64,000 nucleotides of DNA from a virus (lineage: Duplodnaviria > Heunggongvirae > Uroviricota > Caudoviricetes), in the IMG/VR virus record IMGVR_UViG_2913147268_000005, one strand, 5' to 3'. The notes under the pieces were generated by a model. It saw only the letters and a list, made by a program, of their open reading frames with translations. It did no database searches and had not been told where the DNA came from. The position numbers and the translations under genes were made by a program. Shown one piece after another: positions 1,746-59,810 of the stretch (positions are counted from its first letter, which is position 1; the number at the start of each line of letters is the position of its first letter).

Positions 1746-2417
1746 AATACAGGCATTCTGTTCGCGGAACATTATCAGGGGCCGTATCGTCCGAAAGATG
1801 CCGGGTATGCGGCGAAGGGCAGTGCACTGAAACAGCATGTGATGGCCCCGCTGATTTCTTACTTTCGTGATGCGCGCGCGGCCCTGGGGATAACGGCAAA
1901 ACAGATTGCAGATGCCACAGGAAAGAAAAACATGGTGTCGCACTGGTTCAGTGCCAGTCAGTGGCAGCTACCGAACGAAAGCGATTATCTGAAATTACAG
2001 TCGCTGTTTGCCCGGGTGGCAGAAGAGAAACATCAGCGCGGTGAACTGGAAAAGCCCCACCACCAGCTGGTGGATACGTATACGTCACTGAACCGGCAGT
2101 ATGTGGAGCTGCAGAGTGAATATAAGCATCTGCGGCGGTATTTTGGTGTGACGGCGCAGGTGCCGTACACGGATGTGTGGACACATAAACCGGTGCAGTT
2201 CTATCCCGGGAAACATCCGTGCGAAAAACCGGCAGAAATGCTGCAGCAGATAATCAGCGCAAGCAGTCGTCCGGGTGACCTGGTTGCAGATTTTTTTATG
2301 GGCTCAGGTTCAACGGTAAAAGCGGCACTGGCGCTCGGGCGTCGTGCGATTGGCGTTGAGCTGGAGACCGGACGTTTTGAGCAGACAGTCAGGGAAGTTC
2401 AGGGTTTAATCGTTTGA
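1746..2417 (+). pseudogene. phage DNA methyltransferase (N6-adenine/N4-cytosine family), 3' portion lacking the N-terminal catalytic motif
   Basis: Open frame from the J junction; C-terminal AdoMet motif DLVADFFMGSGSTVKAALALGRRAIGVELE; no DPPY-type motif present. Confidence 0.6.
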
Positions 2418-2466
2418 AACGGATGAGATTGCAGAATTAATTACGCACCATTATTATTCTGCTCCC

Positions 2467-2542
2467 GGCCCTTTAGCTCAGTGGTGAGAGCGAGCGACTC
2501 ATAATCGCCAGGTCGCTGGTTCAAATCCAGCAAGGGCCACCA
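2467..2542 (+). tRNA. tRNA-Ile2 (anticodon CAU, lysidine type; elongator Met not excluded)
   Basis: 76-nt cloverleaf-compatible sequence GGCCCTTTAGCTCAG...CTCATAA...GGGCCACCA, close to E. coli ileX/ileY as recalled; encoded 3' CCA. Confidence 0.85.
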
Positions 2543-2642
2543 TCACAAACCGCCATTAGCTTATCAGGAAGAGCAGACGACACGATAACAGGGTTGTTGG
2601 TGCGGGGGCGGGTCCCCGATGGCGGTCCATTATCGGTATTCA

Positions 2643-2719
2643 GCGTTGTTAGCTCAGCCGGACAGAGCAATTGCCTTCTAAGCAATCGGTCACTGGTTCG
2701 AATCCAGTACAGCGCGCCA
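2643..2719 (+). tRNA. tRNA-Arg (anticodon UCU)
   Basis: 77-nt GCGTTGTTAGCTCAG...CCTTCTAAG...CAGCGCGCCA; anticodon loop CU-UCU-AA; phage argN/argO-like. Confidence 0.85.
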
Positions 2720-2826
2720 TATTCATTCTTCCAGATTCCTTCCGGCAGAGCCTTATACTGAAATATACCTGGCTCAGGATATTGTTGAAAATATTATATG
2801 TTTGTCAAAAATAAAAGTTCTGTTAA

Positions 2827-3183
2827 GTGTTGATTGAGTGTTTGTTATACGGTCTAATGGTTTTTTCAGCATTAAATATTTATCATTCATATGGTGTGGG
2901 TAGAGTGAATATTGATGAGGCGTCGGGGTGTTTCATCCTTAGGCAGCGTATTGATATAGTCAATGCAGCACGAGCAAAGGCCTTCAGCCGTTTGACAGTT
3001 TTGTTCTGTACTCCTGATCGTCTTTCGGGAAGAGACGTTATTATTCTGAATAGTGATGCTATACAGAGGGTTTGCGATGAGTTCATGGTGGCTAATTCAG
3101 AATTATTTACTCTTGTTCAGGAGTACAACAGAATAGCCAGGACCTGTGGTATGGATGAACTTCGGATTACTCATCTGGGGTAG
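2827..3183 (+). CDS. hypothetical protein in AT-rich moron locus
   Basis: 118-aa ORF, AT-rich, no homology recognised; followed by a terminator. Confidence 0.35.
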   Translation: MLIECLLYGLMVFSALNIYHSYGVGRVNIDEASGCFILRQRIDIVNAARAKAFSRLTVLFCTPDRLSGRDVIILNSDAIQRVCDEFMVANSELFTLVQEYNRIARTCGMDELRITHLG

Positions 3184-3574
3184 ATACATATCTGGATTAT
3201 CACCGGTTACGGTAAAAAGTGATTGCTTACTGTTTTTGTGAATGGCATTGCTGCAGCCGGATAATGTCAGTGCTGGCTGACGGTGTGCTGGTGGCGGGTG
3301 TGGTGGTTGTTGCTTTCCCGTTGCTGAAAAAGAAAACGCCAGACTGTTAGCCGGGTATCAGTTAGCGGGAGAAATTTTTAAATACTTCACAATTCAGGCG
3401 GTTGATTGTTGTCTGGTTTGCGGGGAGTTTGTTAAAAGAAACTGGCATGGTGAATCCCCCTGTGCGGAGGGGCAATCAGCGAGTAGGTATATGGGATAAT
3501 CGCGGATTCAGGTGCTGGTACTGAATTCACCGGGAGGCACCCGGCACCATGCAATGGCACATAGCGCCACTCTC

Positions 3575-3605
3575 CAGCCCCTCTCCGGAGGGGCTGTTTA
3601 TATTG
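3575..3605 (+). terminator. rho-independent terminator
   Basis: 9-bp stem CAGCCCCTC/GAGGGGCTG with tccg loop followed by TTTATATTGATTTT. Confidence 0.6.
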
Positions 3606-3630
3606 ATTTTGTCAGATGTGAGTAAACTCC

Positions 3631-3966
3631 TTATGGACTTTGTTGTTTTAGTCCATAAGGACATATTTGCAGAGTGCAACGGTTATTAAAGCATTCATTC
3701 AATACGTTATCTGTATTTGTAGGGCATTCCTGGCTGTTTTTGATTAAATTCCAGAATGTTTTATTGAATGGTACTACGTTGTAAATGGTTACAGGTAGCA
3801 CTTTGTTATTGAGCATGATGCCTGTGTGAGTCAGTGTAAATATACTTTCAGGAGGTAAGAAAGCATCCGATTGATACCAGATTATTAATTTTATTTTACT
3901 CCATATGACTGAAAAAGATATTCCGCATGATGGCTGGATAACTGTATCAATCACAATCCACTTCAT
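3631..3966 (-). CDS. hypothetical protein in AT-rich moron locus
   Basis: 111-aa ORF, AT-rich; 3' end overlaps a 10-bp inverted repeat CCTTATGGAC/GTCCATAAGG. Confidence 0.3.
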
Positions 3967-4211
3967 TTAGTTTCCTTGTTTATGCCTTGCTGGTGATGTT
4001 CTGAAAAGTATAAATGATATTTTTGATTGTAAACCATAGAGCAGAATTATTTTTCTGATGTTGTTTATTGTTTATTTAAATGCAGGGTGGTTTATATCTC
4101 GTCTTGTAGTTTATCCATGCATATCTGCTTGATGATGAGGTTTTTATTTAAGGTATGGTTTTGTGTTTTTTCTGTATTACATGTCAGGTATTTTAAAGAA
4201 TCATTTTTCAG

Positions 4212-4700
4212 ATGGTGGAAAGAACCATGGCATTTAAACACTATGATGTTGTCAGGGCGGCGTCGCCGTCAGATCTTGCGGAAAAGCTGACACATAAACT
4301 GAAAGAGGGCTGGCAGCCGTTTGGTAGTCCGGTGGCCATAACCCCTTATACCCTGATGCAGGCGATTGCAGCAGAAGGTGATGTGGTCGTCAGTGGTGCA
4401 ACTGAGCCGGAGTGGTACTACGTCATCGTACTGGCCGGGCAATCCAATGCCATGGCTTACGGTGAAGGGCTTCCGCTTCCGGATTCATACGATGCGCCCC
4501 ATCCGCGCATTAAGCAACTGGCCCGTCGTAACACAGTGACTCCCGGTGGTGAAGTATGCGTATTTAACGACATCATTCCTGCTGACCATTGTCTGCATGA
4601 TGTTCAGGATATGAGTACGATTAACCATCCCCGGGCTGACCTGAGCAAAGGGCAGTACGGCTGTGTCGGACAGGGCTTACATATTGCCAAAAAACTGCTT
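4212..4700 (+). pseudogene. nanS: nanS-p (prophage sialate O-acetylesterase) 5' fragment: DUF1737 plus start of SASA/SGNH domain
   Basis: MAFKHYDVVRAASPSDLAEKL... and VLAGQSNAMAYGEGLPLPDSYDAPHPRIKQLARR match the intact copy at 22243; homology stops after ~163 codons. Confidence 0.75.
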
Positions 4701-5334
4701 CCGTGCATTTTTGGTAATATCCGTCAGCGTCAGCGCATTCAGCCCCAGTGTCAGACTGTCTTTTATGACCTGGAATGCCGGGCCAGCCACTCCATTCAGT
4801 TTCGGAGTAACCGTGGCACTGCCGGCGGTGAACACCAGCTCCAGCGTCTGCCAGTCGTTACTGTAATTCCCGAACTCGCCCAACTTTGTGTTTCCTGCTT
4901 TCTTGTGATGCATCAGATTCAGTTTGCCGTCTGTGGTCTGGGTGAAGAACGACATCAGGAACGGGTTACCAGTCCCGGTCATCGCCACGACGTCAGGTAA
5001 CGCTACATCGGTATACAGATAAATTCCCAGACCGAACTGATTGTTGGTCAGTGCGCCTGACAGTCGAAACTTACAGCTCAGTCTGCCACCCCGTGTCAGC
5101 AGGGAGACTGCGTCATCCACCGGGCGCGTCAGGGACCAGGCTTTATTGCTCTGCTTGGTGATCTTAAATACACCATCTGACAACTGAATTCCGCCATTCT
5201 TAATGCTCCAGCCCTGCGCAGCAGCATCTCCGGCTGTCGGCAACAGGGAGATTGTGCGTACGGATGCATCTTCAGACGGCCCCGATGGCGTGTCGCCGCC
5301 GGGCGAGGGTTTGATTTCCGGTGCCTTACCACTA
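4677..5334 (-). pseudogene. nanS: nanS-p 3' fragment (C-terminal domain), inverted relative to the 5' fragment
   Basis: Minus-strand ORF begins SGKAPEIKPSPGGDTPSGP (same motif that ends the 22243 copy) and matches the 41309-41950 copy. Confidence 0.7.
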
Positions 5335-5388
5335 GTCATCGGGCATTATCTGAACATAAAACACTATCAATAAGTTGGAGTCATTACC
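5335..5388 (-). mobile_element. IS1 terminal stub (54 bp)
   Basis: Reverse complement reads GGTAATGACTCCAACTTATTGATAGTGTTTTATGTTCAGATAATGCCCGATGAC, the IS1 terminus as recalled; no further IS1 sequence. Confidence 0.8.
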
Positions 5389-11446: not shown

Positions 11447-11450
11447 ACCA

Positions 11451-13228: not shown

Positions 13229-13245
13229 CCTATTTCATCCATAAA

Positions 13246-14476: not shown

Positions 14477-14477
14477 A

Positions 14478-14512: not shown

Positions 14513-15537
14513 AGAAGAGCATAAGAGTTAAAACGGATCACCTCTTCGCCAAGCCAGTCATTGATGTGCTTCATAGCCTCCATAACGGGCATCAGCTCGT
14601 TAATTGCGTAAACCCGCGCTGCCTTCTCCACATCGCCAAACGCACTTTTTTCGCCCGGCATCGCCCCCATCAGTTGCGGCGGAACGCGGTGCGCAGCCAG
14701 CACATCATCACGGGATGCCGCCTTAACATTCATGAATTCATCTTTTGCGGTGATCTGCTGGAACGGCAAAATTTGCACCCCCTCTTTGCCCCCGTTGGGC
14801 GCATGAATGAGCACGTTTTTAAACGCACCACCACCACGTGCCCCCTGTAGCGTTTCTTTCAGGGAGTCCATGCTTTCGCGGTTTACCTGCGCTGCACCGA
14901 TGTAGATGATGCACCCGGCGTGGGATCCGTTGTCGTAGTACAGTTTTCTGAACATGTCCGCCGAATGAGAAAGGCTGGCCGAGAGTAATGCGCCAAGATA
15001 TTCCGGCATGCCGTAGATTTCCTGGTTAATATCCGGATTCATCAGGTGGCACACTTTGCCAGGACGAAACTGAAACGCGTCCTTGCCATCCTGCACATAC
15101 CACCATGATTCAAGATCGCTTCCGCGTCGCATGTATTTCGCCAGGGCGTGCCGTAATTTAAGCGGTTCGCCGAGCATATTGCTTCGAAGCTCAAGGAATG
15201 CGTTACCGAACACAAACCAGTCCAGCGCCAGCGCCGAGAAATCCTGCCGGGAAAGCAGCGGGTGCGGGATGTAGCAACCGAGTAATACATTGCGCTTAAA
15301 GTAAAGCGCAGACTGATGCCAGGACGTTTGCCGGGCTGCTCTTGCCAGACCGTACCAGTCCACCGGGGTTTCATACCACCGCCCGTTATCAGCACAGTAC
15401 ATATTGTCCAGCAGGTCATGCCCGGTCAGGCGATAAGGACCATCAAATGTGAATGCACTGAGCGATGATTCTTTCCTGAGCGCATCAGCGAGATCAATGC
15501 GTGAACTCATGCGCACTTTTTTATTTTTTCTGCTCAT
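14491..15537 (-). CDS. P2 gpQ-like portal protein
   Basis: 348-aa ORF; P2-type Q-P (minus) / O-N-M-L (plus) divergent arrangement. Confidence 0.75.
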   Translation of the reverse strand: MSRKNKKVRMSSRIDLADALRKESSLSAFTFDGPYRLTGHDLLDNMYCADNGRWYETPVDWYGLARAARQTSWHQSALYFKRNVLLGCYIPHPLLSRQDFSALALDWFVFGNAFLELRSNMLGEPLKLRHALAKYMRRGSDLESWWYVQDGKDAFQFRPGKVCHLMNPDINQEIYGMPEYLGALLSASLSHSADMFRKLYYDNGSHAGCIIYIGAAQVNRESMDSLKETLQGARGGGAFKNVLIHAPNGGKEGVQILPFQQITAKDEFMNVKAASRDDVLAAHRVPPQLMGAMPGEKSAFGDVEKAARVYAINELMPVMEAMKHINDWLGEEVIRFNSYALLDEKTAP

Positions 15538-17288
15538 CAGAACTCCATAACCATGAAACGCTCGTTTTCTCCTTCGCCGCCAATTGGTTCGTTAATGACA
15601 GCAAGCATGGTTGCCCACGCAAGGTCGCCGTGGCTGATCCCCCTCGCGCGGTCCGTTTCGTAAGTGATAAAGCCGCCCGGTGTTTTCACCTTACGCACGG
15701 CGTTAAAGGCCGCGACCAGCTCGCGTTCGGCGCGATCGTATTCCCACCGCCCGGCACGCATTATTTGCAGCATTTTCAGTACCAGCGACCGTTTTGATGA
15801 CAGCGTGAAGGTGTACGGAATAGCAGCAGGGAAAAACCGCTTCACTATCTGATAAACAGCCTCCCCGTTCCCGCCCGTCACATCAATGCCGATGTGTTCC
15901 ACGTTGTAGCGACACGTGAACTCTTCAATGACTCTGGCCTGTTCTTCAAACTCCAGCCCCTGAACGCGTCGCGTCTCCACCGTTCGAAAACGGCCGCCAG
16001 GAACAGCCGGAGGAACCACCACGGACACAGCGCCGCTGTCGCCGTTGCCACTACTGCCGTTTGCGTCATACCCAATCCATACCGGACGATTCCCCATCGG
16101 GCGGGGAGCAAAAGGTTTCCAGTCTTTCCAGTCGTCGTATCCGTCAACACCGCAGCCAATCAGGATATTCAGGTTAAATGCCGATTCCCCTTCGCGGACA
16201 AACTCACACATATAGAGATTGAGGAACTCGTCTTCGGTGTTTTCATCACGAATTTCGTCGATATCGGTGTGTTTCCAGCCGTGATTAACCACATCTTCCA
16301 GCGTGACAATTTGCCGCCACGTCCGGTCAGGGCAGATAAGCCCATTATGCAGCGTTTTCCAGTCCACAGAAAAACGCTGGCGTTTATGCGAGGCCTTTTT
16401 CTCGTTCCAGCGGTCGCCGTTCCAGTAGGCGTATGCCTCGTGCGTTTCGGTGGATGGCGTGGAGAAGTAGGTGCGCCGCAGTCCGCTGAGGGTTGCCATA
16501 GCGCCAGCCACCTTGCGCAGTTCAGCAAAGCGACTGACCCAGAAAAATTCATCAAAATAAAAATTGCCCGTATAGGACTGTGCCGACGCAGCAGAAGTGC
16601 CGAGAAAATGCAGCTCTGCGCCGTTGGAGAGGATGATTTTATCGCCCCCTTTCAGCTCCACATCAACTTCAGCCGCGGCCTTCTGAATAATGCTTTTAAA
16701 CTGGAACGCCTGACGACGCGACGCAGACAAAAAAATCTGGTTACGCTGGTAAGGTTGCGCCACATCGTCACGCAGCGCCATCAGCAGTGCTTCCTGTGCA
16801 AAATACCAGGTCGCCCCAATCTGTCGGGATTTCAGGATCATCCTGTTACGTATCCCGGCTTCCCTGCAAAGGGTCAGGGAGTCAAACCAGCCCCGCTGAT
16901 GCCACTCCAGCCTGCTGATGATTTTTTCCCGCAGTGCGGCAATCTGTTCCGGCGTGAAATGATTTTTGAGTTTTTTCGCCCGGCCTTTCTTTCCTGCGGC
17001 CATCACATCCGGCTGGCCATCATGCAGCTTTTTAAGCTGCCGGGTCAGCAGGTCTATTTCCTTAAAGTCACCGCCTGTTTTATTCTGTTTTTCAGTAAGC
17101 TGGATGAGGCGCGCATCGATGGACTGCGTGACACGCTGCACGGGTGGCGTTTCATCCCACTGGTCACGTTTTTTCCACGCATAAATCGTGTTCGGGTTTA
17201 TTCCCATCAGACGTGATATTTCTGCGGGCGGATAACCCTGCCAGTAAAGTTGCCGCGCACGCTGGCGCACAAAAGCGTCCTGAATCAT
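15537..17288 (-). CDS. P2 gpP-like terminase ATPase (large) subunit
   Basis: 583-aa ORF, N-terminus MIQDAFVRQRARQLYWQGYPPAEISRLMGINPNTIYAWKKR, size and position as P2 P. Confidence 0.8.
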   Translation of the reverse strand: MIQDAFVRQRARQLYWQGYPPAEISRLMGINPNTIYAWKKRDQWDETPPVQRVTQSIDARLIQLTEKQNKTGGDFKEIDLLTRQLKKLHDGQPDVMAAGKKGRAKKLKNHFTPEQIAALREKIISRLEWHQRGWFDSLTLCREAGIRNRMILKSRQIGATWYFAQEALLMALRDDVAQPYQRNQIFLSASRRQAFQFKSIIQKAAAEVDVELKGGDKIILSNGAELHFLGTSAASAQSYTGNFYFDEFFWVSRFAELRKVAGAMATLSGLRRTYFSTPSTETHEAYAYWNGDRWNEKKASHKRQRFSVDWKTLHNGLICPDRTWRQIVTLEDVVNHGWKHTDIDEIRDENTEDEFLNLYMCEFVREGESAFNLNILIGCGVDGYDDWKDWKPFAPRPMGNRPVWIGYDANGSSGNGDSGAVSVVVPPAVPGGRFRTVETRRVQGLEFEEQARVIEEFTCRYNVEHIGIDVTGGNGEAVYQIVKRFFPAAIPYTFTLSSKRSLVLKMLQIMRAGRWEYDRAERELVAAFNAVRKVKTPGGFITYETDRARGISHGDLAWATMLAVINEPIGGEGENERFMVMEF

Positions 17289-17442
17289 TGCTCCCCCTGA
17301 GTAATTACAGGAAGATTACCCGCGCGCGAAACTGTTCTCCTTAACCCTCTGTTCTGACTGTTTTCTTACAACAAAAGCCCTTTGTATCAGCCTGTTACGC
17401 TTTGCCATCATGACTGAAGAACCAGTCAGAGGGGCAAAAACT

Positions 17443-18279
17443 ATGGCTAATGAAAAAAAGACATCCCGCAAAAAGTTTCGCGTGGCTGTCTCCGGATCAA
17501 CTGTTGATGGCCGTGAAATCAGTCCGGTGCATCTGCGTGAAGCCGCCGAGAACTTCAACCCGGATGTTTACGCTGCCCGCGTGAACGTTGAGCACTATCT
17601 CTCGCCATGTCCGTCAAGCGAATTTTCCGCAATGGGCGATGTCACCGCACTGAGTACGGAAGACATTACGGAAGGTCCGCTGGCCGGACGTACTGCGCTG
17701 TATGCAGAAATCGAACCGACCGAGCGCATGAAGCAGCTTGTCGCTGACGGCAAGAAAATCTATTCCAGTATCGAACTGCACCCGCAGTTCTCCGTTAACG
17801 GGCGCGCCTATCTGGTCGGGCTGGCGATGACCGACACCCCGGCAAGCCTGGGCACTGAGCGCCTGAAATTCACGGCACAGCAACGTCAGGCGGTGATGAC
17901 GTTCAACAGTATCCAGGGTGAAGCACCGCTTATCTCCGAAGCCATCGAGTCTGAAATCATCGAAATGGCAGAACAACGCCAGGAAGAAGGCACCCAGTGG
18001 TTTAACCGCGTAATGGGGATTATTGGTCGTGGCCGCAAAGCGGATGACGCCAGTTTCTCCCGAATTCAGGAAGCGGTGGAAGGCGTTGCAACGTCACAGG
18101 CCGACATTATCGACCGTTTTAATGTGCTGGAAACCCGCCATCAGCAGGACCGCCAGAAAATCACGTCACTGACCACAGAGCTGACAGCATTGAAGGAAAA
18201 ACTGCGCACGCAGGACGGCGATCCGCAGAACCGCTTCACCGCAACGGGCGCAGCCTCCGACCAGCTGGCTGACTTCTGA
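17443..18279 (+). CDS. P2 gpO-like capsid scaffolding protein
   Basis: Start MANEKKTSRKKFRVAVSGSTVDGREIS parallels P2 O MAKKVSKFFRIGVEGDTCDGRVIS as recalled. Confidence 0.75.
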   Translation: MANEKKTSRKKFRVAVSGSTVDGREISPVHLREAAENFNPDVYAARVNVEHYLSPCPSSEFSAMGDVTALSTEDITEGPLAGRTALYAEIEPTERMKQLVADGKKIYSSIELHPQFSVNGRAYLVGLAMTDTPASLGTERLKFTAQQRQAVMTFNSIQGEAPLISEAIESEIIEMAEQRQEEGTQWFNRVMGIIGRGRKADDASFSRIQEAVEGVATSQADIIDRFNVLETRHQQDRQKITSLTTELTALKEKLRTQDGDPQNRFTATGAASDQLADF

Positions 18280-18302
18280 TAAGACAAAGGAGCAAATTTT
18301 TT

Positions 18303-19355
18303 ATGAATCTGGTGATGTCAGATATTACCCGCAACAAGCTGGGTTGCTATATGGCGCAGCAGGCGTCGCTTAACAATATCCCGGTATCTGCACTGGTATC
18401 GCGATTTACCGTGGAACCCGCGGTGCAGCAGCGTTTTGAAAACGCCTCAAAGGAAAGTACCGAATTTACGAAAAGAATTAACGTGATCGGCGTGACCGAC
18501 CAGAAAGGCGAAAAAATCCTCCTGGACACCACCGGGCCAATTGCGCGCACGAATAGCAGTTATGACGGCATCAAACGCCGTAACCCGAATAACGTGATCG
18601 ATATGAAGTCTCGTCAGTACCAGTGCGAACAGGTGAACTACGATACCTTTATTTCGTACCCACAGCTTGATACCTGGGCGGCCCACAGCGATTTTCAGTC
18701 CCGTATCAGTACACAGATCGCCCGGCAGGTAGCGCTTGATCGCATCATGATTGGCTTTAACGGCACATCCCACGCCTACGAGTCTGATTTTCACACCAAC
18801 AAGCTGCTTCAGGACGTTAACGTGGGCTGGCTGGAGCACATCAGAACCGATGCCAGCGAGCGCGTAATGAATGACGTGACGCTGACCTCCCGCAACATGG
18901 ACAACACTGTGGCGCACGCGGGTAAGTATGCGAATGCCGATGCTCTGGTACAGGATGCGCGCTCATCCCTGCTGGATGAATGGCACAAGGAAGCTGACGA
19001 CCTCGCGGTGATTATGGGGCGCAACCTGTTTAACTCGCTGCGTCTGCCCGTGCTGAACAGCATCAGCGGCCAGAATCCCAATGCGGAATTACTTGCCGGG
19101 CAGCTCATCCTGTCATCGCGCACCATTGGCGGGCTGGGCGTGTTCCTTGCGCCGTTCTTCCCGGATGCAACGATGCTTATCACCTCGTTCAACAACCTGT
19201 CGATTTACTGGCAGAAAGGTTCAATGCGTCGCCTGATGAAAGACGAGCCGGAATACAACCGCATCGCCACCTACCAGTCCATCAATGACGCTTATGTCGT
19301 TGAAGACTATGGCAAGTGCGCGATGGTCACTGGCCTGAAGTTCGCCGACAGCTAA
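18303..19355 (+). CDS. P2 gpN-like major capsid protein
   Basis: 350-aa ORF with AAGGAG SD; shared blocks KFTVEP, DVNVGWL, DALVQDA, FFPDATMLIT, NLSIYW, YVVEDYG with P2 N. Confidence 0.8.
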   Translation: MNLVMSDITRNKLGCYMAQQASLNNIPVSALVSRFTVEPAVQQRFENASKESTEFTKRINVIGVTDQKGEKILLDTTGPIARTNSSYDGIKRRNPNNVIDMKSRQYQCEQVNYDTFISYPQLDTWAAHSDFQSRISTQIARQVALDRIMIGFNGTSHAYESDFHTNKLLQDVNVGWLEHIRTDASERVMNDVTLTSRNMDNTVAHAGKYANADALVQDARSSLLDEWHKEADDLAVIMGRNLFNSLRLPVLNSISGQNPNAELLAGQLILSSRTIGGLGVFLAPFFPDATMLITSFNNLSIYWQKGSMRRLMKDEPEYNRIATYQSINDAYVVEDYGKCAMVTGLKFADS

Positions 19356-19400
19356 TCAACTCACGGCGGGCATCATGCCCGCCTGTAACGGAGAGAAAAA

Positions 19401-20201
19401 ATGATTACTCCTGCACAACAACACTGGCAGAACGTGATGGCACAGCGCGCAGGCCGGGCGAATGAAGGTGTGGACCACGCCGCGTGTACCGCGCATGAAG
19501 AGGTGCTGTATCGTCTGCGTCTGGCACAGGCCAGGCTAAAGGCCATACAGGCCAGAAGCGCGAAAGCCGCCATCAAAAAAGAGTTGTTGCCGGACTTTTC
19601 CGGCTGGATTGAGGGAACGCTGGAGGCTGACGGCGGGCAACAGGACGAAGTAATTGCCACGCTGATGGTGTGGGCGATTGACTGCGGCGATCTTCCGCTG
19701 GCGCTGCGTATTGGTGCATATGTGGTCCGTCACAACCTCATCATGCCGGATAACTTTGGCCGTACTGCTGCCACGGTACTGACCGAAGAAATCTGCAACC
19801 CGGTACTGACGCAGGCTGGGACGGATGCCGACGCGGATTTATCCGCCTTTATCGAACCACTGGACACACTTTGGGAAATTATCGCCAACCAGGACATGCC
19901 GGACGAAGTGCGCGCCAAATTATGCAAGGCGTGTGCCTTTGCCCGTCGTGGCCTGACCGATGCAGACAACATGGCCTCATCACTGAAGCTGCTGCGCGAA
20001 GCGATGCACCTGAACCCGAACGCAGGTGTGAAACGCGAGATTGCAACCCTTTCCCGCGCCCTGAAAAAAGCCGATTCCGCAGCCGAACCAGAAGACGCCA
20101 GCGCACAGCAGGCGCAGGACGAAAGCAGCAAAAGTAAAAAGACAACGCGGAAGCCTGCAACACGAAAAACCACCGCGACGCAGAAGGCAAAGCGCGGTTA
20201 A
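19401..20201 (+). CDS. P2 gpM-like terminase small/endonuclease subunit
   Basis: 266-aa ORF in the P2 M position. Confidence 0.65.
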   Translation: MITPAQQHWQNVMAQRAGRANEGVDHAACTAHEEVLYRLRLAQARLKAIQARSAKAAIKKELLPDFSGWIEGTLEADGGQQDEVIATLMVWAIDCGDLPLALRIGAYVVRHNLIMPDNFGRTAATVLTEEICNPVLTQAGTDADADLSAFIEPLDTLWEIIANQDMPDEVRAKLCKACAFARRGLTDADNMASSLKLLREAMHLNPNAGVKREIATLSRALKKADSAAEPEDASAQQAQDESSKSKKTTRKPATRKTTATQKAKRG

Positions 20202-20293
20202 CGACTGACCCCGTCAGCGGGCGGCGTGCGCGGTGTTCCGGTTTGACTCCGTGACCGTTTACACCGCGCACCCACCGCCCGATTTTTTCAGGA

Positions 20294-20797
20294 GTGAACC
20301 CCATGAGTATGGTTGCCAGAACTAACCCCGGCCCCGCAGAGGACGACATCACCGACACCGATGATGGCGATACCCGTATTTCAGCGGGTGCATTCTGGCC
20401 GGATATTGTGCTGCGCGAGCTGCGTCTGGCGGTACGACTGCCGGGCCGCGTGACCACCTCCCGCCTGCTGCATACCGCCACCGGGGCCATAGCACACGTT
20501 ACCCGCGAGCTGGAAGCATGGCAGCAGGAACAACAGGCGGCTGGCTATCAGACGCTGGCCGATGTTCCGGCCCCTGTAATTAACGGAGAAAGCGTCAATC
20601 TCTGGCACTGGCGCAATGCTGTTTATACCGCCACACGCGCCCTGATTCTGGAGCGTTACCGCGATGCGGACACAACGGACAAGGGCGACCGCCGGGCGGA
20701 CGCACTGGATATACAGACATCGGATTTGTGGCGCGATGTGAGCTGGGCCATCTCTGACATTCTGGGACGACCGCGAATGTTTGCGGAGCTGTGCTGA
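20294..20797 (+). CDS. P2 gpL-like head completion protein
   Basis: 167-aa ORF in the P2 L position. Confidence 0.6.
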   Translation: MNPMSMVARTNPGPAEDDITDTDDGDTRISAGAFWPDIVLRELRLAVRLPGRVTTSRLLHTATGAIAHVTRELEAWQQEQQAAGYQTLADVPAPVINGESVNLWHWRNAVYTATRALILERYRDADTTDKGDRRADALDIQTSDLWRDVSWAISDILGRPRMFAELC

Positions 20798-20997
20798 TGA
20801 AAGTGAAGGCACTGGAAGGCGACACCGTGGATTCGCTCTGTTTCCGGTACTACGGCACGACACAGGGCGTCACCGAAAAGGTGCTGGATGCCAACCCCGG
20901 ACTCTGTCAGCAGGTATTTCTGGACGCCGGGCAGGAAGTGGAGATGCCGGAGCCGGAGAAGAAGAAACGAGAAATGATTCAGTTGTGGGGGGAGTAG
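20791..20997 (+). CDS. P2 gpX-like tail protein
   Basis: 68-aa ORF MLMKVKALEGDTVDSLCFRYYGTTQG in the P2 X position. Confidence 0.6.
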   Translation: MLMKVKALEGDTVDSLCFRYYGTTQGVTEKVLDANPGLCQQVFLDAGQEVEMPEPEKKKREMIQLWGE

Positions 20998-20999
20998 CA

Positions 21000-21323
21000 G
21001 TGAGCACCATTCAAACAGGGATCACAGAGCAGGTTATTGCGTGGCTCTTTGACCACCTGCCAACGGTGTATGCAGTAGGCGCGGCGGTCAGCATTTCCGC
21101 GCTGATGAGTCTTTATGACGGACGAACACTGGTTCAGACCGTAACGGGATCGCTGGCGTGCGGCGTTCTTGCCATGGCCGTGGCCGGGTCGCTGCGCTTC
21201 TTCGGGATCCCTGAGGATGCAGTGACGTTTTTTGGTGCCTCAATCGGTTTTATGGGCGCAGAGAAAGCACGCGACAAGGTTATTGCAATATTTGATCGCA
21301 GGGTGAAGGAGAGGAACGAATGA
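21000..21323 (+). CDS. holin
   Basis: GTG-initiated ~107-aa ORF with hydrophobic segments, directly before the endolysin. Confidence 0.6.
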   Translation: MSTIQTGITEQVIAWLFDHLPTVYAVGAAVSISALMSLYDGRTLVQTVTGSLACGVLAMAVAGSLRFFGIPEDAVTFFGASIGFMGAEKARDKVIAIFDRRVKERNE

Positions 21324-21712
21324 GCAACACATTTAAATTCAGCAGCCGGAGCGAAAAGAATTTGCAGGGTGTAAATCCTGATCTGGTGAAAGTGACCCGA
21401 CGGGCGCTGGAAATCTCGGAAGTGGATTTTGGTATCACCGAAGGATTGCGCAGTCGTTATCGTCAGAAGCAGCTCGTGACCACAGGCAAGAGCCAGACCA
21501 TGAACAGTCGCCATCTCACAGGGCATGCCGTGGATGTTGTGGCTTATGTCGGCAACCAGGTGTCATGGGAATGGCCGCTGTACGAAAAAATCGCAGCAGC
21601 ATTCAGACAGGCCAGCCAGGAACTGAATATTCCGGTGGAATGGGGCGGCGACTGGAAGACCCTGAAAGACGGACCGCATTTTCAGTTACCACACGGAGCC
21701 TATCCGGCATGA
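21320..21712 (+). CDS. endolysin, M15-type L-alanyl-D-glutamate peptidase
   Basis: 130 aa; motifs SRHLTGHAVDV and WGGDW typical of zinc D-Ala-D-Ala carboxypeptidase-fold endolysins. Confidence 0.7.
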   Translation: MSNTFKFSSRSEKNLQGVNPDLVKVTRRALEISEVDFGITEGLRSRYRQKQLVTTGKSQTMNSRHLTGHAVDVVAYVGNQVSWEWPLYEKIAAAFRQASQELNIPVEWGGDWKTLKDGPHFQLPHGAYPA

Positions 21713-22104
21713 AGCTCTGGCCCACGCTTGGCGTCGCTTTCCTTCTGATTACATCCATGCGTCTGTCGTGGTCGCTGGGCCGGGAGAACGCCAGAAACGA
21801 AGCGCAGGCCAGCACCCTGAAAAGTACCGTCGACACACTGAATATCATCAGCGCCGGGGTACAGGATATGCAGCAGGTGCTGGCTCAGCTCCGCGCGGAA
21901 AATCAGCAACGCAATCAGGACGGAGAGGTAAGACGTGAACAGCTACGCAACGATATTGCAAAAGATGAATGCGCCCACGCTTTGCCTGACGCTCGTTTTA
22001 CTGACAGGTTGCGCAGGCACGCAGAACGCGCCAGGGCCAGCGCCGTCAGTCCGGCTTATACCGCAGACGCTGACCATGCCGGTAACGCCTCCCCCCTTCC
22101 CTGA
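21709..22104 (+). CDS. i-spanin (Rz/LysB-like)
   Basis: N-terminal TM MKLWPTLGVAFLLITSM then coiled-coil region; contains the embedded o-spanin. Confidence 0.65.
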   Translation: MKLWPTLGVAFLLITSMRLSWSLGRENARNEAQASTLKSTVDTLNIISAGVQDMQQVLAQLRAENQQRNQDGEVRREQLRNDIAKDECAHALPDARFTDRLRRHAERARASAVSPAYTADADHAGNASPLP

Positions 22105-22246
22105 CCCACCCACATGGGGAAACCTCGGAATATGGGGCGACCGCCTTCTGGATGCACTGGAAACCTGTAACGCGGATAAACGGGCCATTGCTGAACTGGA
22201 TAAGAGAATAGCCGAACTGACACACCAGACGGGAGTAACACAATGA
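21935..22246 (+). CDS. o-spanin lipoprotein (Rz1/LysC-like)
   Basis: Lipobox LTLVLLTGC and proline-rich body; embedded in the i-spanin gene in another frame. Confidence 0.65.
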   Translation: MNSYATILQKMNAPTLCLTLVLLTGCAGTQNAPGPAPSVRLIPQTLTMPVTPPPFPDPPTWGNLGIWGDRLLDALETCNADKRAIAELDKRIAELTHQTGVTQ

Positions 22247-23487
22247 CCAGTAAGAACTTTGCACTGATTACAGCCATGACACAGGCTGAACTGACTCAAA
22301 AGGTGAATGAACATCTTGCGAAAGGGTGGCATCTTCAGGGGGAGACGCGGGTTGCCTACGAACCCGGCACCCCGTGGTATCTAATGCAGGCAATGGTGGC
22401 CGATGGCACTACAGACATCTCACCTGATTCCCCCCAGCACGGCAGCGTGCCGGAGTGGTATTACGTGGTGGTACTTGCTGGTCAATCCAATGCCATGTCA
22501 TATGGTGAGGGAATGCCGCTGCCGGATTCTTACGATGCGCCCCACCCACGCATTAAGCAACTGGCCCGTCGCAACACAGTGACTCCCGGTGGTAAAGCAT
22601 GCGCATTTAACGACATCATTCCGGCAGACCACTGCCTGCATGATGTTCAGGATATGAGCGCACTGAATCACCCGAATGCAGACCTGAGCAAAGGGCAGTA
22701 TGGCTGTGTCGGACAGGGCTTGCATATTGCCAAACGCCTGTTGCCTTACATTCCACAGAATGCCGGGATTTTACTGGTTCCATGCTGTCGTGGTGGTTCG
22801 GCATTCACCCAGGGCGCGGAGGGGACATTCAGCGAGTCCACAGGAGCCAGTCAGGATTCGGCTCGCTGGGGTGTGGGTAAACCTTTATATCAGGACCTGA
22901 TTTTGCGCACGAAGGCCGCATTGCAGAAAAACCCAAAAAACATGCTGCTGGCCGTATGCTGGATGCAGGGCGAATTTGACATGAGCGCCGCTACGTACTC
23001 ACAGCAACCTCCGCTGTTTACGGCCATGCTGAAACAGTTTCGTGCGGACATTACCGAGTTTAACACGCAGTGTCATGGAGGCAGAGCGGCAAGTGTGCCA
23101 TGGATTTGTGGTGACACGACGTATTACTGGAAAAACACCTACGGCACGCAGTACGACACCATTTACGGGGCGTACAAAAACAGGGAGAGCGACAACGTTT
23201 TCTTTGTGCCGTTCCTGACCGATGGTAGTGGCAACAATACCTCCACCAACGCACCAACGGAAGATCCGGATGCTGCAAGTGAGGGATATTACGGTTCGGC
23301 ATCCCGAACGAACAAAAACTGGGTATCATCAAATCGCCAGACGCATTTCAGCTCATGGGCGCGTCGTGGCATTATTCCCGATCGTATGGCAACCGCTATT
23401 CTGAACGTAGCCGGTCGCACCTTAGCCTTCATCAGTGGTAAGGCACCGGAAATCAAACCCTCGCCCGGCGGCGACACGCCATCGGGG
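22243..23487 (+). CDS. nanS: nanS-p prophage sialate O-acetylesterase (DUF1737 + SASA domain), C-terminal domain missing
   Basis: GQSNAM SGNH motif; start overlaps the o-spanin stop (ATGA); homology ends at KAPEIKPSPGGDTPSGP; ORF then reads through to 23706 as junk. Confidence 0.8.
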
Positions 23488-23757
23488 CCCGGTGACCAGA
23501 CCGAACAGATTGGACACCGTCAGCGACGGTCTGGCACTGCTGCCCTTCCCGCTCATCTCAAAACCGCTGCCGTCAATCGGGTATGCCTGATATTGCCGCC
23601 CCTGCCAGGTGACCGGCTCCCCTTTTTCATTCAGCTCATTACAGAAAAAATACCGCTCACCGCCCTGTACCGTCAGGTCGATTTCCCAGAGTACCACCCG
23701 CGGTGACTGCTCTGACTTAACCGACTCGTTCAGACTTTCTTCGCGAATATCCTGCAT
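23488..23757 (-). pseudogene. lambda gpL minor tail protein, N-terminal ~90 codons only
   Basis: MQDIREESLNESVKSEQSPRVVLWEIDLTVQGGERYFFCNELNEKGEPVTWQGRQYQ matches the lambda L N-terminus; stops at the nanS junction. Confidence 0.8.
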
Positions 23758-24098
23758 CAGTTCACCACCTGCTCAATCGTACAACTGAAATCACTGTGCC
23801 TGGCGTTATCTGTGACGCTCCACTCCCGGCACACCACCCTCACCGTCAGGTTATGTTTCGGCGGTCGCCACAAAAAGGCACGGTAACCACCATGCCACGA
23901 TAAAAATTCATCCAGCCAGCGCCGGGTTGGTTCATCCGTCACCCGGAACACCGCCTGAAACGTCTTCAGTCTGGCATTAAGTCCCGTCGGTCGGCGCTGT
24001 TCATAACCGTCACCAAACCGAACCCTCACCACCGACGGTTTCTCACTCACCTGCATCCCTTCACGCGGGACCAGATGCAGCGTTTTTATCTCAGCCAC
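23757..24098 (-). CDS. lambda gpM-like minor tail protein
   Basis: 113-aa ORF between H and L. Confidence 0.7.
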   Translation of the reverse strand: MAEIKTLHLVPREGMQVSEKPSVVRVRFGDGYEQRRPTGLNARLKTFQAVFRVTDEPTRRWLDEFLSWHGGYRAFLWRPPKHNLTVRVVCREWSVTDNARHSDFSCTIEQVVN

Positions 24099-56745: not shown

Positions 56746-56857
56746 TTGCCAAAGCAGATGGGCCTGAGGTTTGCTTGTGACCCCAACGCATGAGCAGATG
56801 GCTGGTGGGTGCCCCTAACACCCACCAGCCGCCCATTTACCACAAATAAAAAAGCCT

Positions 56858-57052
56858 TCACTGCGGAAGGCGTCTGTAACAACCGAACTGATAGTCTGCC
56901 AGACCCGCCATAACCAGCTGGGTCAGTATTAACTGGCAGCGTTCGCGTGAAAGGTAAGTATTCTGCGCAATCTCCCCGGCTGTCGCCGGTTCGGTGACGC
57001 TTAATTCATTAAACACCACTCTGGCGGTTTCTGTCATATCCTGCTGTTTCAG
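56858..57052 (-). CDS. hypothetical small phage protein
   Basis: ~64 aa from MLKQQDMTETARVVFNELSVTEPATAGEIA. Confidence 0.35.
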   Translation of the reverse strand: MKQQDMTETARVVFNELSVTEPATAGEIAQNTYLSRERCQLILTQLVMAGLADYQFGCYRRLPQ

Positions 57053-57281
57053 CATGTCTTTTTCCCTTTTCCGGTTAACGTGACACACCAATAACTCTTG
57101 TCGAAAAAGCCAGCAAGCTGAAAGACAGGTATTCACCGCCACCAGCGCGTTTACTGTACTGACGCGATTTCAGTCATAAAAAACCCGCCAGGCGGCGGGG
57201 TGTAAAAAATCTTCTAACGTCAGGCATAAAACGCCCATCGTTAGAGCAAATTTACCACAGATTCGGGAAAAATCAACAACA

Positions 57282-58103
57282 CTATCGCGTTACCCTCTTT
57301 AACTGCCGCTCCGCCCATGCCTCTTCAATGTCAAACCGAACCACCAACGTATCGTAAAAGCGTTTCACTGATTTTTTCCACGTATCAAGCGTGATAGCAC
57401 TCGTCACTTTGCATATGGCATTAAATGCCTCCGTTGATGGTAGTCTTTCACAGCCACGACCACCACAACGCTGGCAGTCTCTGATAACAGGCATACCACG
57501 TTTTACCGACTCTTCACGATGAATGGCGACACCACGCCCACGGCAGTCTTTACAGGCAGTGGAAATCTCCCCCTTCCCTTTACATTCAGGACAAGAAACT
57601 TTCACCACCTCCCGAATTTTTTTCCATTCTTCCCAGTAAGACGGATACACACCTTTCGTACACTTTGCCCATACTGGCGGCTTGCCATCCGGATACTGAA
57701 CCTTGTTTGTAAAAACTTCGCCTTCAATAAATTTTTCCCCTCGGCAACAGGGGCACTGCTTTTTACTCGCTGCGCTGCGGGCATAATCCTCAAAAGCGTA
57801 CGAAGCCATAATGCGCATCACTACCGGTTTTATTTCTGCCGGAAGTTTTCTCAACGCCGCCACACGATCGCACCGACTGAGTGCATAATCTGCCAGTAAT
57901 TCTGTTGCCCGCGCCCTGTCATTCATACTGATGCCCATTTTCCCCAGGAACGCAGAAAACCCCATCTCAGCCCGATTCTGTGTCATGCCCTGCGCGGCCA
58001 TCACATCAGTGATACTCAGCGCATCTTTCGACGTTGAGGCCGATGCATCAGTCAGGCCGGGGGATTTTGGGGAGTAGTATTTCGGTAAATCTTCCAGTTT
58101 CAT
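57282..58103 (-). CDS. Q-type late antiterminator (QuuQ-like), Cys-rich
   Basis: 273 aa; four CxxC-type motifs (CPCCRGEKF, CPECKGKGE, CKDCRGRG, CQRCGGRG); immediately downstream of rusA. Confidence 0.5.
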   Translation of the reverse strand: MKLEDLPKYYSPKSPGLTDASASTSKDALSITDVMAAQGMTQNRAEMGFSAFLGKMGISMNDRARATELLADYALSRCDRVAALRKLPAEIKPVVMRIMASYAFEDYARSAASKKQCPCCRGEKFIEGEVFTNKVQYPDGKPPVWAKCTKGVYPSYWEEWKKIREVVKVSCPECKGKGEISTACKDCRGRGVAIHREESVKRGMPVIRDCQRCGGRGCERLPSTEAFNAICKVTSAITLDTWKKSVKRFYDTLVVRFDIEEAWAERQLKRVTR

Positions 58104-58480
58104 TTTTTGACCTGCTCTTCATGCATTATGGGGTAAATCTTCACCCCCAGACGTCCACCAGATACTGGCTGACCACGAACGATATTGATTTCATCAAACT
58201 GCTCATCGTCCATTAGCAACCCCGCATGCGTCAGCGCATCCAGCGGCGCTTTCAGAATATTGTCCAGATCACGGCGGCGCTTATCCGGTGGTTCTGCAAT
58301 AATTTTTATTGCCAACCTTCCGGACAGGCTTAATTTCAGCCGCTGCTGGCGAACAATAAGCGCCACTGCCCGGCGATAACGCTCCCCGGCTTTTGATACA
58401 AAATATGTGCTGCCACGACGACGCCAGTAAGTGTTCACCGTTGGCGGGTAAGGCAAAACAAATTCTATGCGTTCAGTCAT
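58100..58480 (-). CDS. rusA: RusA Holliday-junction resolvase
   Basis: MTERIEFVLPYPPTVNTYWRRRGSTYFVSKAGERYRR...RRRDLDNILKAPLDALTHAGLLMDDEQ. Confidence 0.85.
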   Translation of the reverse strand: MTERIEFVLPYPPTVNTYWRRRGSTYFVSKAGERYRRAVALIVRQQRLKLSLSGRLAIKIIAEPPDKRRRDLDNILKAPLDALTHAGLLMDDEQFDEINIVRGQPVSGGRLGVKIYPIMHEEQVKK

Positions 58481-59536
58481 TTATGCTTTCCACTTCAGAA
58501 CACCCGAATTTCTCGCGTGCATTAAAAAACGAATCAGCAACAACAGCTGGCTGCCGTGTTTTTCTTCAAAATCTTTTACCCCGGCGTGTAGTTCGCTATG
58601 GCATTTACGGCACAGCGGAATAACAAACAAATCATCAGCCTTTGTTCCCATCCCTCCCAGTCCATGACCAATGATGTGATGCGGATCATCTGCCTGATTG
58701 CCACACGTCATGCATTTCTGCGTTTTTACCCAACGCGTGTATACAGGCATCTCTTCCCGTTGTGATTTCTGGCGCTGGAGATACTGAGCCGGTGACTCCG
58801 GATCAACGGCAATGCTGACCACCGTCTTTTCCTGTGGCGGGTTTTGCTGGTGGGCGTGAGGCAGCGGCGCAAGATTTTTTGTGCGCTGCTTCAGTATGCT
58901 GGTGGCGGTCTGCTCTCCCGGTACGATGTCGCTTTCACGGTACATTGAGCGGATTTTTTCCGCACGCAACCCCAGCGAACGACGTAATACCGCTTCCGGT
59001 AGCGCGTCCGCCACCTGATTGCGGACCGCCCACCAGGATAATTCAGCCAGCGATAATTCCCGTTCCTGCGAGCCATTCATTGCATGGCGTATGACGTCAA
59101 TCATCCATGCAAACAGGTTTTGGTGAGCAAGTTGCCCGAGTGATTCGGAGGTCTGGTCGCGCAGCTGGTTGTCGCAGTGCCAGCACAACACCATTGCGCC
59201 GGTACCATAACGGTGAATGACGGTTTCACTGTGGTGATAATCGCCGTGTGGCCACTGGCAGGATTTAACATGGCGCAGTAACCAGTCAGACAATGCGCCA
59301 GCGCCACCAGCAGCACGAATCACTCGTTCGTCGCTGAAAAATGGCAGTAATGATTTATCCTCCGCCAGCGGCTGGCGAACGGCAGGAACGACCCCGGACG
59401 GCAGATTACGCATGCTTTTCGGTTCCGGCTCCACCAGTACCCGGGTATTGTGGAATACCGGCATGGATTCACGGCCCGGCTTAACGATCACCAGCCCGAG
59501 TTCCGGTACCAGAACAGGTCGAAGTAATACCCGCAC
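58481..59536 (-). CDS. DUF968 (YdfU-like) protein with HNH-like C-terminus
   Basis: 351 aa; C-terminal CMTCGNQADDPHHIIGHGLGGMGTKADDLFVIPLCRKCHSELH. Confidence 0.55.
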   Translation of the reverse strand: MRVLLRPVLVPELGLVIVKPGRESMPVFHNTRVLVEPEPKSMRNLPSGVVPAVRQPLAEDKSLLPFFSDERVIRAAGGAGALSDWLLRHVKSCQWPHGDYHHSETVIHRYGTGAMVLCWHCDNQLRDQTSESLGQLAHQNLFAWMIDVIRHAMNGSQERELSLAELSWWAVRNQVADALPEAVLRRSLGLRAEKIRSMYRESDIVPGEQTATSILKQRTKNLAPLPHAHQQNPPQEKTVVSIAVDPESPAQYLQRQKSQREEMPVYTRWVKTQKCMTCGNQADDPHHIIGHGLGGMGTKADDLFVIPLCRKCHSELHAGVKDFEEKHGSQLLLLIRFLMHARNSGVLKWKA

Positions 59537-59537
59537 G

Positions 59538-59810
59538 TTACCTCCAGATGCGTTGCTGGAATGTGCGGGACGGACGCGGTGGGCGTTCAGAGTAAGGAAG
59601 CCTGACGGAGATTATCCAGTGACGATAATCGAGGCTGAGGGCTTTCTTAATCTCGTATCCGCGTCTGCGGTAGTTATGAATTAGCCATTCGGCCTGTTCT
59701 TCAGTACATGGTGGGTGTTGGTACCAGTCGGTTTTAAATGCGTGTGAACGCCGCCCATGCCGGATGGCAAGGTCGGTATCAGAATTGTGAAATTTGGTTT
59801 TGTGCGCCAT
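59538..59810 (-). CDS. hypothetical protein (Rem-like by position)
   Basis: 90-aa ORF between DUF968 gene and hokD. Confidence 0.3.
   Translation of the reverse strand: MAHKTKFHNSDTDLAIRHGRRSHAFKTDWYQHPPCTEEQAEWLIHNYRRRGYEIKKALSLDYRHWIISVRLPYSERPPRPSRTFQQRIWR

What the first reader, a model, noticed from the sequence alone, without database searches (positions are those of the whole stretch)
23380..23500. Recurrent breakpoint inside nanS-p: the same motif marks three independent junctions
The nanS-p copy at 22243 loses homology right after GKAPEIKPSPGGDTPSGP, where it is fused head-to-head to a truncated lambda L gene. The fragments at 5334 and 42130 begin or end at the same motif. Three junctions at one position argue for recombination between multiple nanS-p copies, or assembly collapse of a repeat.
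Basis: partly seen in the sequence, partly recalled or inferred. Interest (0 to 1): 0.4.

Follow-up and report, generated by a model that had tools for sequence, protein, structure and literature searches.

The report
Contig ends butted together inside nanS-p
The three "breakpoints" in the prophage sialate-esterase gene nanS-p are places where a short-read assembler stopped at a repeat and the contigs were then joined end to end, so they are an assembly artefact and not a recombination hotspot.

Summary
The sequence is as described. A nanS-p-like gene (22243-23489, +) stops just after GKAPEIKPSPGGDTPSGP and abuts a 5' fragment of tail gene L (23490-23757, -). Two other nanS fragments (4704-5333 and 41435-42127, both -) start in the same linker.

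These are contig ends, not biological junctions. The window is a draft E. coli ST131-like assembly with three N gaps. It carries three nanS paralogues: one in a P2-like prophage, one in a lambdoid prophage and one in a third prophage.

Seven fragment ends, including the L end, lie exactly 56 nt from the nearest base that distinguishes one repeat copy from another. This was measured against closed genomes JJ1887 and OZ121077. Inside the window, the 630-nt fragment shares exact 56-nt terminal overlaps with the P2-type and lambdoid nanS pieces. That pattern fits a de Bruijn assembly with k-1 = 56.

Position 5334/5335-5388 is a partial IS1 end. None of 5,426 complete E. coli genomes contains any of the three junctions. 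In closed ST131 genomes each side continues intact at 100% identity.

The ends cluster at the linker because the paralogues switch there from about 70-80% to more than 99% identity. That old mosaicism is real and already visible in closed genomes.

Verdict: not a real feature; low interest.

The parts
22243..23489 (+). 5' 1,247 nt (aa 1-415 of 625) of the nanS-p-like gene of the P2-like prophage. This is the right end of contig 5334/5335-23489.
   Evidence: 100% identical to JJ1887 L002 4590-22690. Full-length gene annotated as a DUF6645 protein, followed by P2 tail genes, in JJ1887. Pfam DUF1737 + SASA.
23434..23489 (.). Terminal 56-mer of the P2 contig. It starts one base after the last P2-versus-lambdoid SNP (23433).
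   Evidence: Exact run of 56 nt against the lambdoid nanS copy, then a mismatch. The same 56-mer occurs as reverse complement at 5278-5333.
23490..23757 (-). 5' 268 nt (aa 1-89 of 232) of minor tail protein L of the lambdoid (ompW-site) prophage. This is the left end of scaffold 23490-42127.
   Evidence: 100% identical to JJ1887 L001 from 20003 on. L is full length in JJ1887. The first 56 nt (23490-23545) are identical to the L gene of the third prophage (OZ121077, L005), then a mismatch.
1753..4703 (+). Contig of the lambdoid prophage holding the methyltransferase 3' part, tRNAs, iraM and the nanS 5' 492 nt (4212-4703).
   Evidence: 100% identical to L003 24945-27895. Both ends show exact 56-nt runs against the third prophage.
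4704..5333 (-). 630-nt repeat contig covering the nanS linker and most of the C-terminal (DUF6645) domain.
   Evidence: 100% identical to L003 29212-28583 and 99% to the P2 copy. It is bounded by SNPs 28582 and 29213. Both terminal 56-mers recur at the ends of the P2 contig and of the 40234-41424 piece. Pfam DUF6645.
5334..5388 (.). 54-55 nt of the terminal inverted repeat of IS1. This is the left end of the P2 contig.
   Evidence: Annotated as IS1A, contiguous with the same P2 sequence, in closed ST131 genomes MB1159, p4A and 4993.
41309..41424 (-). 3' end of the lambdoid nanS gene. This is the right end of scaffold member 40234-41424.
   Evidence: Matches L003 30347-29157. Exact 56-nt run against the third allele.
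41425..41434 (.). 10-N scaffold gap flanked by a 103-nt duplicated overlap (41322-41424 and 41436-41538).
41435..42127 (-). Third nanS allele, from the linker to near the stop codon. Its right end at 42127 is a contig/scaffold end.
   Evidence: 693 nt identical to OZ121077 L004 6000-6692. Exact 56-nt run against the lambdoid copy from 42127 inward, then SNP 28627.
42128..43300 (.). Unrelated short pieces butted on: a Hok-like ORF, a 159-nt tail-fibre piece, an ISEc8 fragment and an IS3 fragment.
   Evidence: No closed genome joins them to nanS.
56750..64000 (-). Early region of the same lambdoid prophage, in the opposite orientation to 1753-4703. Its end lies 56 nt into the methyltransferase repeat.

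Best explanation
The junctions are boundaries between separately assembled short-read contigs and scaffolds that were written one after another without spacers.

The sequenced strain is ST131-like. It has three nanS-p paralogues: one in a P2-like prophage, one in a lambdoid prophage at ompW and one in a third lambdoid prophage. It also has two near-identical L-K-I-J tail modules.

A de Bruijn graph assembler can follow one copy only until its k-mers become identical to those of another copy. The contig then stops k-1 bases into the shared stretch. Here k-1 = 56 (shown). I infer k = 57 and a Velvet-type assembler from the minimum 10-N gaps and from a post-gap contig that lacks its 56-nt prefix.

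The nanS linker is where the P2 and lambdoid copies become identical (last SNP at L003 28582) and where the third allele starts to differ (first SNP at 28627). Three contig ends therefore fall within 68 nt of each other. The L 'truncation' is the same effect at the point where L becomes identical to the L gene of the third prophage.

No chimeric nanS-L locus exists in the cell. This last point is inferred with high confidence.
For: 1. Seven independent ends lie exactly 56 nt from the nearest copy-distinguishing base (with SNP maps):
- window 1753 (SNP 25001 minus 56)
- window 4703 (27839 plus 56)
- window 23489 (28582 plus 56)
- window 23490 (L001 20059 minus 56)
- window 41424 (29213 minus 56)
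- window 42127 (28627 minus 56)
- window 56750 (24460 plus 56)
The positions of the L end and of the two methyltransferase ends were predicted from k-1 = 56 before the comparison was made.
2. Within the window, 23434-23489 is the reverse complement of 5278-5333, and 41369-41424 equals 4704-4759. The 630-nt piece is therefore the graph node that overlaps its neighbours by exactly 56 nt.
3. The left end of the P2 contig is 54-55 nt of an IS1 terminus, a typical short-read contig end.
4. There are three N gaps. The 10-N gap is flanked by 103 nt of duplicated overlap.
5. No place in 5,426 complete E. coli genomes covers 80% or more of any of the three junction-spanning queries. The 487-aa chimeric ORF is not on record.
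6. In closed JJ1887 both flanks are 100% identical to the window and continue intact. The P2 nanS is 625 aa and is followed by tail genes. The lambdoid nanS is 617 aa. L is 232 aa and is followed by K, I and J.
7. Pieces of one prophage lie in opposite orientations at the two ends of the window, and the shared 423-nt methyltransferase segment is missing.
Against: No reads, assembly graph or assembly metadata are available, so the assembler and the concatenation step are inferred. The third prophage was modelled from another strain (OZ121077), not from this genome. The left end of the P2 contig fits k-1 = 56 only if another IS1 copy shares the first one or two flanking bases, which I did not verify. 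The reason these particular contigs sit next to each other, some in flipped orientation, is unexplained.
Confidence: 0.93

Rival explanations
1. Real recent recombination among the nanS-p paralogues: homologous exchange or inversion at the conserved linker shuffled the three prophages and left hybrid or truncated genes.
For: The paralogues share blocks that are more than 99% identical. The P2 and lambdoid copies lie in inverted orientation about 490 kb apart in closed ST131 genomes, so an inversion is mechanistically possible. The 68-nt inverted repeat flanks 23490-42059.
Against: Homologous exchange would give nanS-to-nanS hybrids. Here nanS abuts L, IS1 and a hok region with 0-2 nt of shared sequence. 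Flipping 23490-42127 still leaves an L'/linker junction. The exact 56-nt offsets at seven ends have no biological cause. The junctions are absent from 5,426 complete genomes.
Confidence: 0.03
2. Illegitimate recombination: a real deletion or inversion fused the P2 nanS to the lambdoid L by microhomology (the 'CC' at 23488-23489), producing a degraded composite prophage.
For: Two nucleotides of shared sequence lie at the junction. Prophage remnants with such scars are common. A real methyltransferase'-'nanS deletion exists in OZ121077.
Against: Both partners end exactly 56 nt inside repeats. This requires two independent coincidences at this junction alone, and the same coincidence recurs at the other ends. 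No other genome shares the scar. The rest of both prophages is present elsewhere in the same window as separate pieces.
Confidence: 0.02
3. The contig breaks are artefacts, but the neighbourhood is real. A scaffolder placed these contigs together because read pairs link them through unresolved repeat copies, so the strain may carry a real rearrangement between the nanS-bearing prophages that the assembly only hints at.
For: Adjacent pieces nearly all end in nanS. Flipping the P2 contig or the 23490-42127 scaffold would give proper 56- or 68-nt overlaps.
Against: Graph-adjacent nodes are expected to be listed together even in a wild-type arrangement. The overlaps fit the canonical loci of JJ1887 equally well. 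There are no Ns at these joins, whereas real scaffold links in this record carry Ns.
Confidence: 0.05

Closest known systems
De Bruijn graph contig termination at repeat boundaries in short-read draft assemblies (contigs overlap by k-1; partial IS ends at contig termini)
   Same: Ends lie exactly 56 nt from copy-distinguishing SNPs. There are exact 56-nt terminal overlaps between pieces, a partial IS1 terminus and N-gap scaffolding.
   Different: The contigs are abutted without any spacer, which creates false chimeric ORFs such as the 487-aa nanS-L antisense fusion. The pipeline step that did this is unknown.
NanS-p, the prophage-encoded sialate 9-O-acetylesterases of E. coli (DUF1737 + SASA + C-terminal lectin-like domain; PMC10462455)
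   Same: The full-length homologues in closed ST131 genomes have all three domains. The motif GKAPEIKPSPGGDTPSGP is the linker in front of the C-terminal domain, at aa 399 of 625 in the P2-type copy and aa 390 of 617 in the lambdoid copy. Domain-wise mosaicism is described for Stx phages in PMC10462455.
   Different: These copies sit in non-Stx prophages, one of them a P2-like phage where the gene lies between lysC and tail gene R. The window copies are only fragments because of the assembly.
Gene-conversion or mosaic tracts between prophage paralogues
   Same: The P2 and lambdoid copies are 70.6% identical, then 99.5% over 753 nt, then 71.4%. The lambdoid and third copies are 99.9%, then 79.9% over about 166 nt, then 99.6%. 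These tracts are real and present in closed genomes.
   Different: The tract borders (L003 28436, 28627, 28792, 29189) are evolutionary mosaic borders. They are not the junctions flagged in the window, which lie 56 nt away from individual SNPs.

Membership tests
Short-read de Bruijn contig boundary (assembly artefact) | Each end lies a constant k-1 bases inside a sequence that is repeated elsewhere in the genome | tested here: met
   Seven of seven testable ends give exact runs of 56 nt against the other copy.
Short-read de Bruijn contig boundary (assembly artefact) | Neighbouring graph nodes share identical k-1 terminal overlaps | tested here: met
   23434-23489 is the reverse complement of 5278-5333, and 41369-41424 equals 4704-4759.
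Short-read de Bruijn contig boundary (assembly artefact) | The junction is absent from finished genomes, while both flanks are present and intact there | tested here: met
   No place with 80% or more coverage in 5,426 genomes. The flanks are 100% identical and continuous in JJ1887.
Short-read de Bruijn contig boundary (assembly artefact) | No reads or read pairs span the junction; about 2-3x depth over the 630-nt repeat node | not testable with these tools
   No read data are available.
Homologous recombination junction between paralogues | The crossover lies inside shared identity and paralogous sequence continues on both sides | tested here: not met
   nanS is followed by L', IS1 or a hok region, with 0-2 nt shared.
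NanS-p / SASA-family prophage esterase | DUF1737 + SASA + C-terminal DUF6645 / lectin-like domain in one polypeptide | tested here: not met
   Window ORF 22243-23706 has only DUF1737 + SASA. ORF 4677-5339 has only DUF6645. The closed-genome counterparts have all three domains. I attribute the window fragments to the assembly.
Phage minor tail protein L (PF05100) | Full-length match to the L profile (about 206 positions) | tested here: not met
   Only profile positions 3-61 are present in 23490-23757. The gene is full length in JJ1887.

The most novel reading that the evidence does not exclude
The isolate really carries a rearrangement between its nanS-bearing prophages that the short-read assembly could not resolve and only hints at through the odd contig neighbourhood. 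One example would be an inversion of about 490 kb between the inverted, 99.5%-identical 753-nt nanS blocks of the P2-like and lambdoid prophages. nanS-p paralogues would then be substrates for large chromosomal inversions in ST131.
Probability: 0.04. Interest if true: 0.3.

Novelty: not a real feature. Interest (0 to 1): 0.04.

Why it matters
The main value is as a caution. Chimeric ORFs and 'recurrent breakpoints' in this record are products of contig concatenation and should not be annotated or counted as prophage recombination events.

The constant-offset test used here measures the distance from each fragment end to the nearest paralogue-distinguishing SNP. It is a quick way to recognise such artefacts without reads.

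The real biology underneath is modest and already visible in finished genomes. ST131-type strains carry several nanS-p paralogues, one of them in a P2-like phage. Their near-identical C-terminal blocks are mosaic tracts that short reads cannot resolve.

Tried and rejected
1. I looked up the exact 487-aa nanS-L-antisense fusion protein in the public gene-position collection. It is not on record, so there is no independent occurrence.
2. I considered an inversion between the 68-nt inverted repeats 23422-23489 and 42060-42127. Flipping the segment restores a plausible nanS-holin-lysis order but only moves the L'/linker junction, so I rejected it.
3. I first took 5335-5388 for a P2 or lambda regulatory sequence from memory. 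The search showed it is the IS1 terminus.
4. BLAST placed the end of the early-region piece at 56746, five bases off the prediction. Exact matching showed the true end of identity at 56750, which fits 56 nt.
5. I checked whether the prophage at window 1-1752 (K-I-J') is the third nanS carrier. In closed p4A that prophage, at ssrA, has no nanS, and the end at 1752 could not be tested for the offset.
6. I followed a strand flip of the P2 early region in closed strain 4/0. It is a real inversion that splits the prophage but does not involve nanS.
7. The left end of fragment C, right after the 10-N gap, starts on the SNP base itself and not 56 nt before it. This fits a scaffold member printed without its k-1 prefix, but that reading is an inference.

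Full report
**What is in the sequence**

ORF 22243-23706 (+) begins as a nanS-p-like protein with DUF1737 and SASA domains. It reads ...LAFISGKAPEIKPSPGGDTPSGP and then runs into unrelated residues.

On the minus strand, 23757-23490 encodes the first 89 aa of minor tail protein L (Pfam Phage_tail_L positions 3-61). M (23757-24098) and the tape-measure gene (24091-27333) lie upstream of it. The two genes converge and both lack their 3' parts, so the junction is tail-to-tail, not head-to-head.

Two more nanS pieces lie on the minus strand:
- 4704-5333/4, which holds the DUF6645 C-terminal domain and starts MTSGKAPEIKPSPGGDTPSGP.
- 41435-42127, which starts ...LAFISGKAPEIKP.

A fourth piece, 4212-4703 (+), is a nanS 5' end. 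The repeat finder reports the 68-nt inverted repeat 23422-23489 / 42060-42127 at 97% identity.

The three ends are not at one nucleotide, however. In the coordinates of a full-length copy (L003), B ends at 28638, A starts at 28583 and C starts at 28571. The window also has three runs of N: 240, 10 and 10 bases.

**Where the pieces come from**

I compared the window with complete E. coli genomes.
- Window 5389-23489 is 100% identical to the P2-like prophage between dmsA and serS of ST131 strain JJ1887. There the nanS-like gene is 625 aa, sits between lysC and the P2 tail genes, and is intact.
- Window 23490-39993 and 40234-41424 are the late region of the lambdoid prophage next to ompW in the same genome, where L is full length and followed by K, I and J.
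- Window 1753-4703 (+) and 56750-64000 (-) are other parts of that same lambdoid prophage, in opposite orientations.
- Window 4704-5333 is 100% identical to the C-terminal part of the lambdoid nanS, which is 617 aa in JJ1887.
- Window 41435-42127 is a third allele, identical over 693 nt to a prophage of closed genome OZ121077. That nanS is truly N-truncated by fusion to a methyltransferase fragment.
- Window 5334/5-5388 is the terminus of IS1, found at this site in three closed ST131 genomes.

None of the 5,426 complete genomes has a place covering 80% or more of any query that spans one of the three junctions. The chimeric 487-aa protein is not on record.

**The decisive test**

If these ends are de Bruijn graph contig ends, each should lie a constant k-1 bases inside a stretch that is identical in another copy. 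I located the copy-distinguishing bases by aligning the paralogues from the closed genomes. I then counted exact matches inward from each end.

| Fragment end | Window position | Compared with | Exact run |
|---|---|---|---|
| P2 contig end | 23489 | lambdoid copy | 56 nt |
| L end | 23490 | L gene of the third prophage | 56 nt |
| Lambdoid nanS 3' piece | 41424 | third allele | 56 nt |
| Third-allele piece | 42127 | lambdoid copy | 56 nt |
| Lambdoid contig start | 1753 | third prophage | 56 nt |
| Lambdoid contig end | 4703 | third prophage | 56 nt |
| Early-region piece | 56750 | third prophage | 56 nt |

The 630-nt piece is bounded exactly by SNPs 28582 and 29213. I predicted the positions of the L end and of the two methyltransferase ends from k-1 = 56 before making the comparisons, and all three were met to the base.

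The window also contains proof on its own. The 56-mer 23434-23489 is the reverse complement of 5278-5333, and the 56-mer 41369-41424 equals 4704-4759. The 630-nt piece is therefore the graph node that overlaps its neighbours by exactly 56 nt. Seven independent ends at the same exact offset cannot plausibly arise from recombination.

**Interpretation**

The record is a short-read draft whose contigs and scaffolds were concatenated without spacers. The overlap of 56 nt implies k = 57. The minimum-size 10-N gaps, and a post-gap contig starting exactly on a SNP base, are compatible with a Velvet-type assembler. That last point rests on my own knowledge and is not shown here.

The nanS/L 'fusion', the nanS(+)/nanS(-) join at 4703/4704, the nanS/IS1 join at 5333/5334 and the nanS/hok join at 42127/42128 are all boundaries between separate sequences.

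**Why the ends cluster at the linker**

The linker is where the paralogues change from divergent to near-identical.

| Pair | Upstream | Middle block | Downstream |
|---|---|---|---|
| P2 vs lambdoid | 70.6% up to L003 28435 | 99.5% over 28436-29188 | 71.4% |
| Lambdoid vs third | 99.9% up to 28626 | 79.9% over 28627-28792 | 99.6% |

The last P2-specific SNP (28582) and the first third-allele SNP (28627) flank the motif. Ends at plus or minus 56 nt from these two SNPs therefore fall inside it.

This mosaicism is real, lies at the boundary in front of the C-terminal lectin-like domain, and matches the domain-wise diversity described for NanS-p (PMC10462455). It is old, however, and visible in finished genomes. 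It is not a new event in this window.

**Rivals**

Homologous recombination between copies would give nanS-nanS hybrids, not nanS joined to L, IS1 or hok with 0-2 nt of shared sequence. An inversion across the 68-nt inverted repeats only moves the L' junction. Illegitimate recombination would need both partners of every junction to fall by coincidence exactly 56 nt inside repeats. A real rearrangement hidden behind the unresolved repeats cannot be excluded without reads, but nothing requires it.

**Verdict**

This is not a real feature. Interest is low. The useful outcomes are the warning about chimeric ORFs in this record and the simple constant-offset test.

Noticed in passing
window 30779-31384: Three or more tandem copies of a 162-nt (54-aa) unit, 88-94% identical, inside the 861-aa ORF 30325-32910 (-). 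That ORF is annotated as phage portal protein in JJ1887.
   Followed up: no
window 24091-27333: The tape-measure gene is intact here. In closed JJ1887 the same gene is split by ISEcp1-blaCTX-M-15. This isolate therefore lacks that chromosomal CTX-M-15 insertion, or it was assembled elsewhere.
   Followed up: partly
window 42128-43300: A patchwork of short pieces butted together: a Hok/Gef-like ORF at 42229-42417 (-), a 159-nt tail-fibre piece at 42427-42585, an ISEc8 tnpC fragment at 42585-43039, and then an IS3/IS1203 fragment. These look like further concatenated repeat contigs.
   Followed up: partly
window 47888-48506 and 56085-56704: Inverted repeats of 219 and 379 nt at 83-90% identity, about 7.6-8.4 kb apart. 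There is also a 60-nt direct repeat at 48556-48615 / 54979-55038.
   Followed up: no
window 1753-4703 (+) versus 56750-64000 (-): Two parts of the same lambdoid prophage lie in opposite orientations at the two ends of the window. The 423-nt methyltransferase segment between them (L003 24522-24944), which is shared with the third prophage, is missing.
   Followed up: yes
L002 21444-23321 (JJ1887): A full-length nanS-p-like esterase gene is carried by a P2-like prophage, between lysC and tail gene R. Its start overlaps the lysC stop (ATGA at window 22243-22246). 375 complete genomes have a place covering at least 80% of window 20800-23489.
   Followed up: partly
L004 5988-7870 (OZ121077): In this closed genome the third-type nanS is really N-terminally truncated, fused to a 459-nt 5' fragment of a DNA methyltransferase gene. 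This is a true deletion scar.
   Followed up: partly
L007 (closed strain 4/0, NZ_CP023849 947-989 kb): The P2-like prophage is split. Its tail module sits next to serS and its int/early/head module next to dmsA, with aroA...dmsABC between them. Sibling isolates have the prophage in one piece. This is a real inversion that does not involve nanS.
   Followed up: partly
window 39994-40233, 41425-41434, 55594-55603: Runs of 240, 10 and 10 N. The 10-N gap at 41425 is flanked by 103 nt of duplicated sequence, meaning overlapping contig ends were left unmerged.
   Followed up: yes
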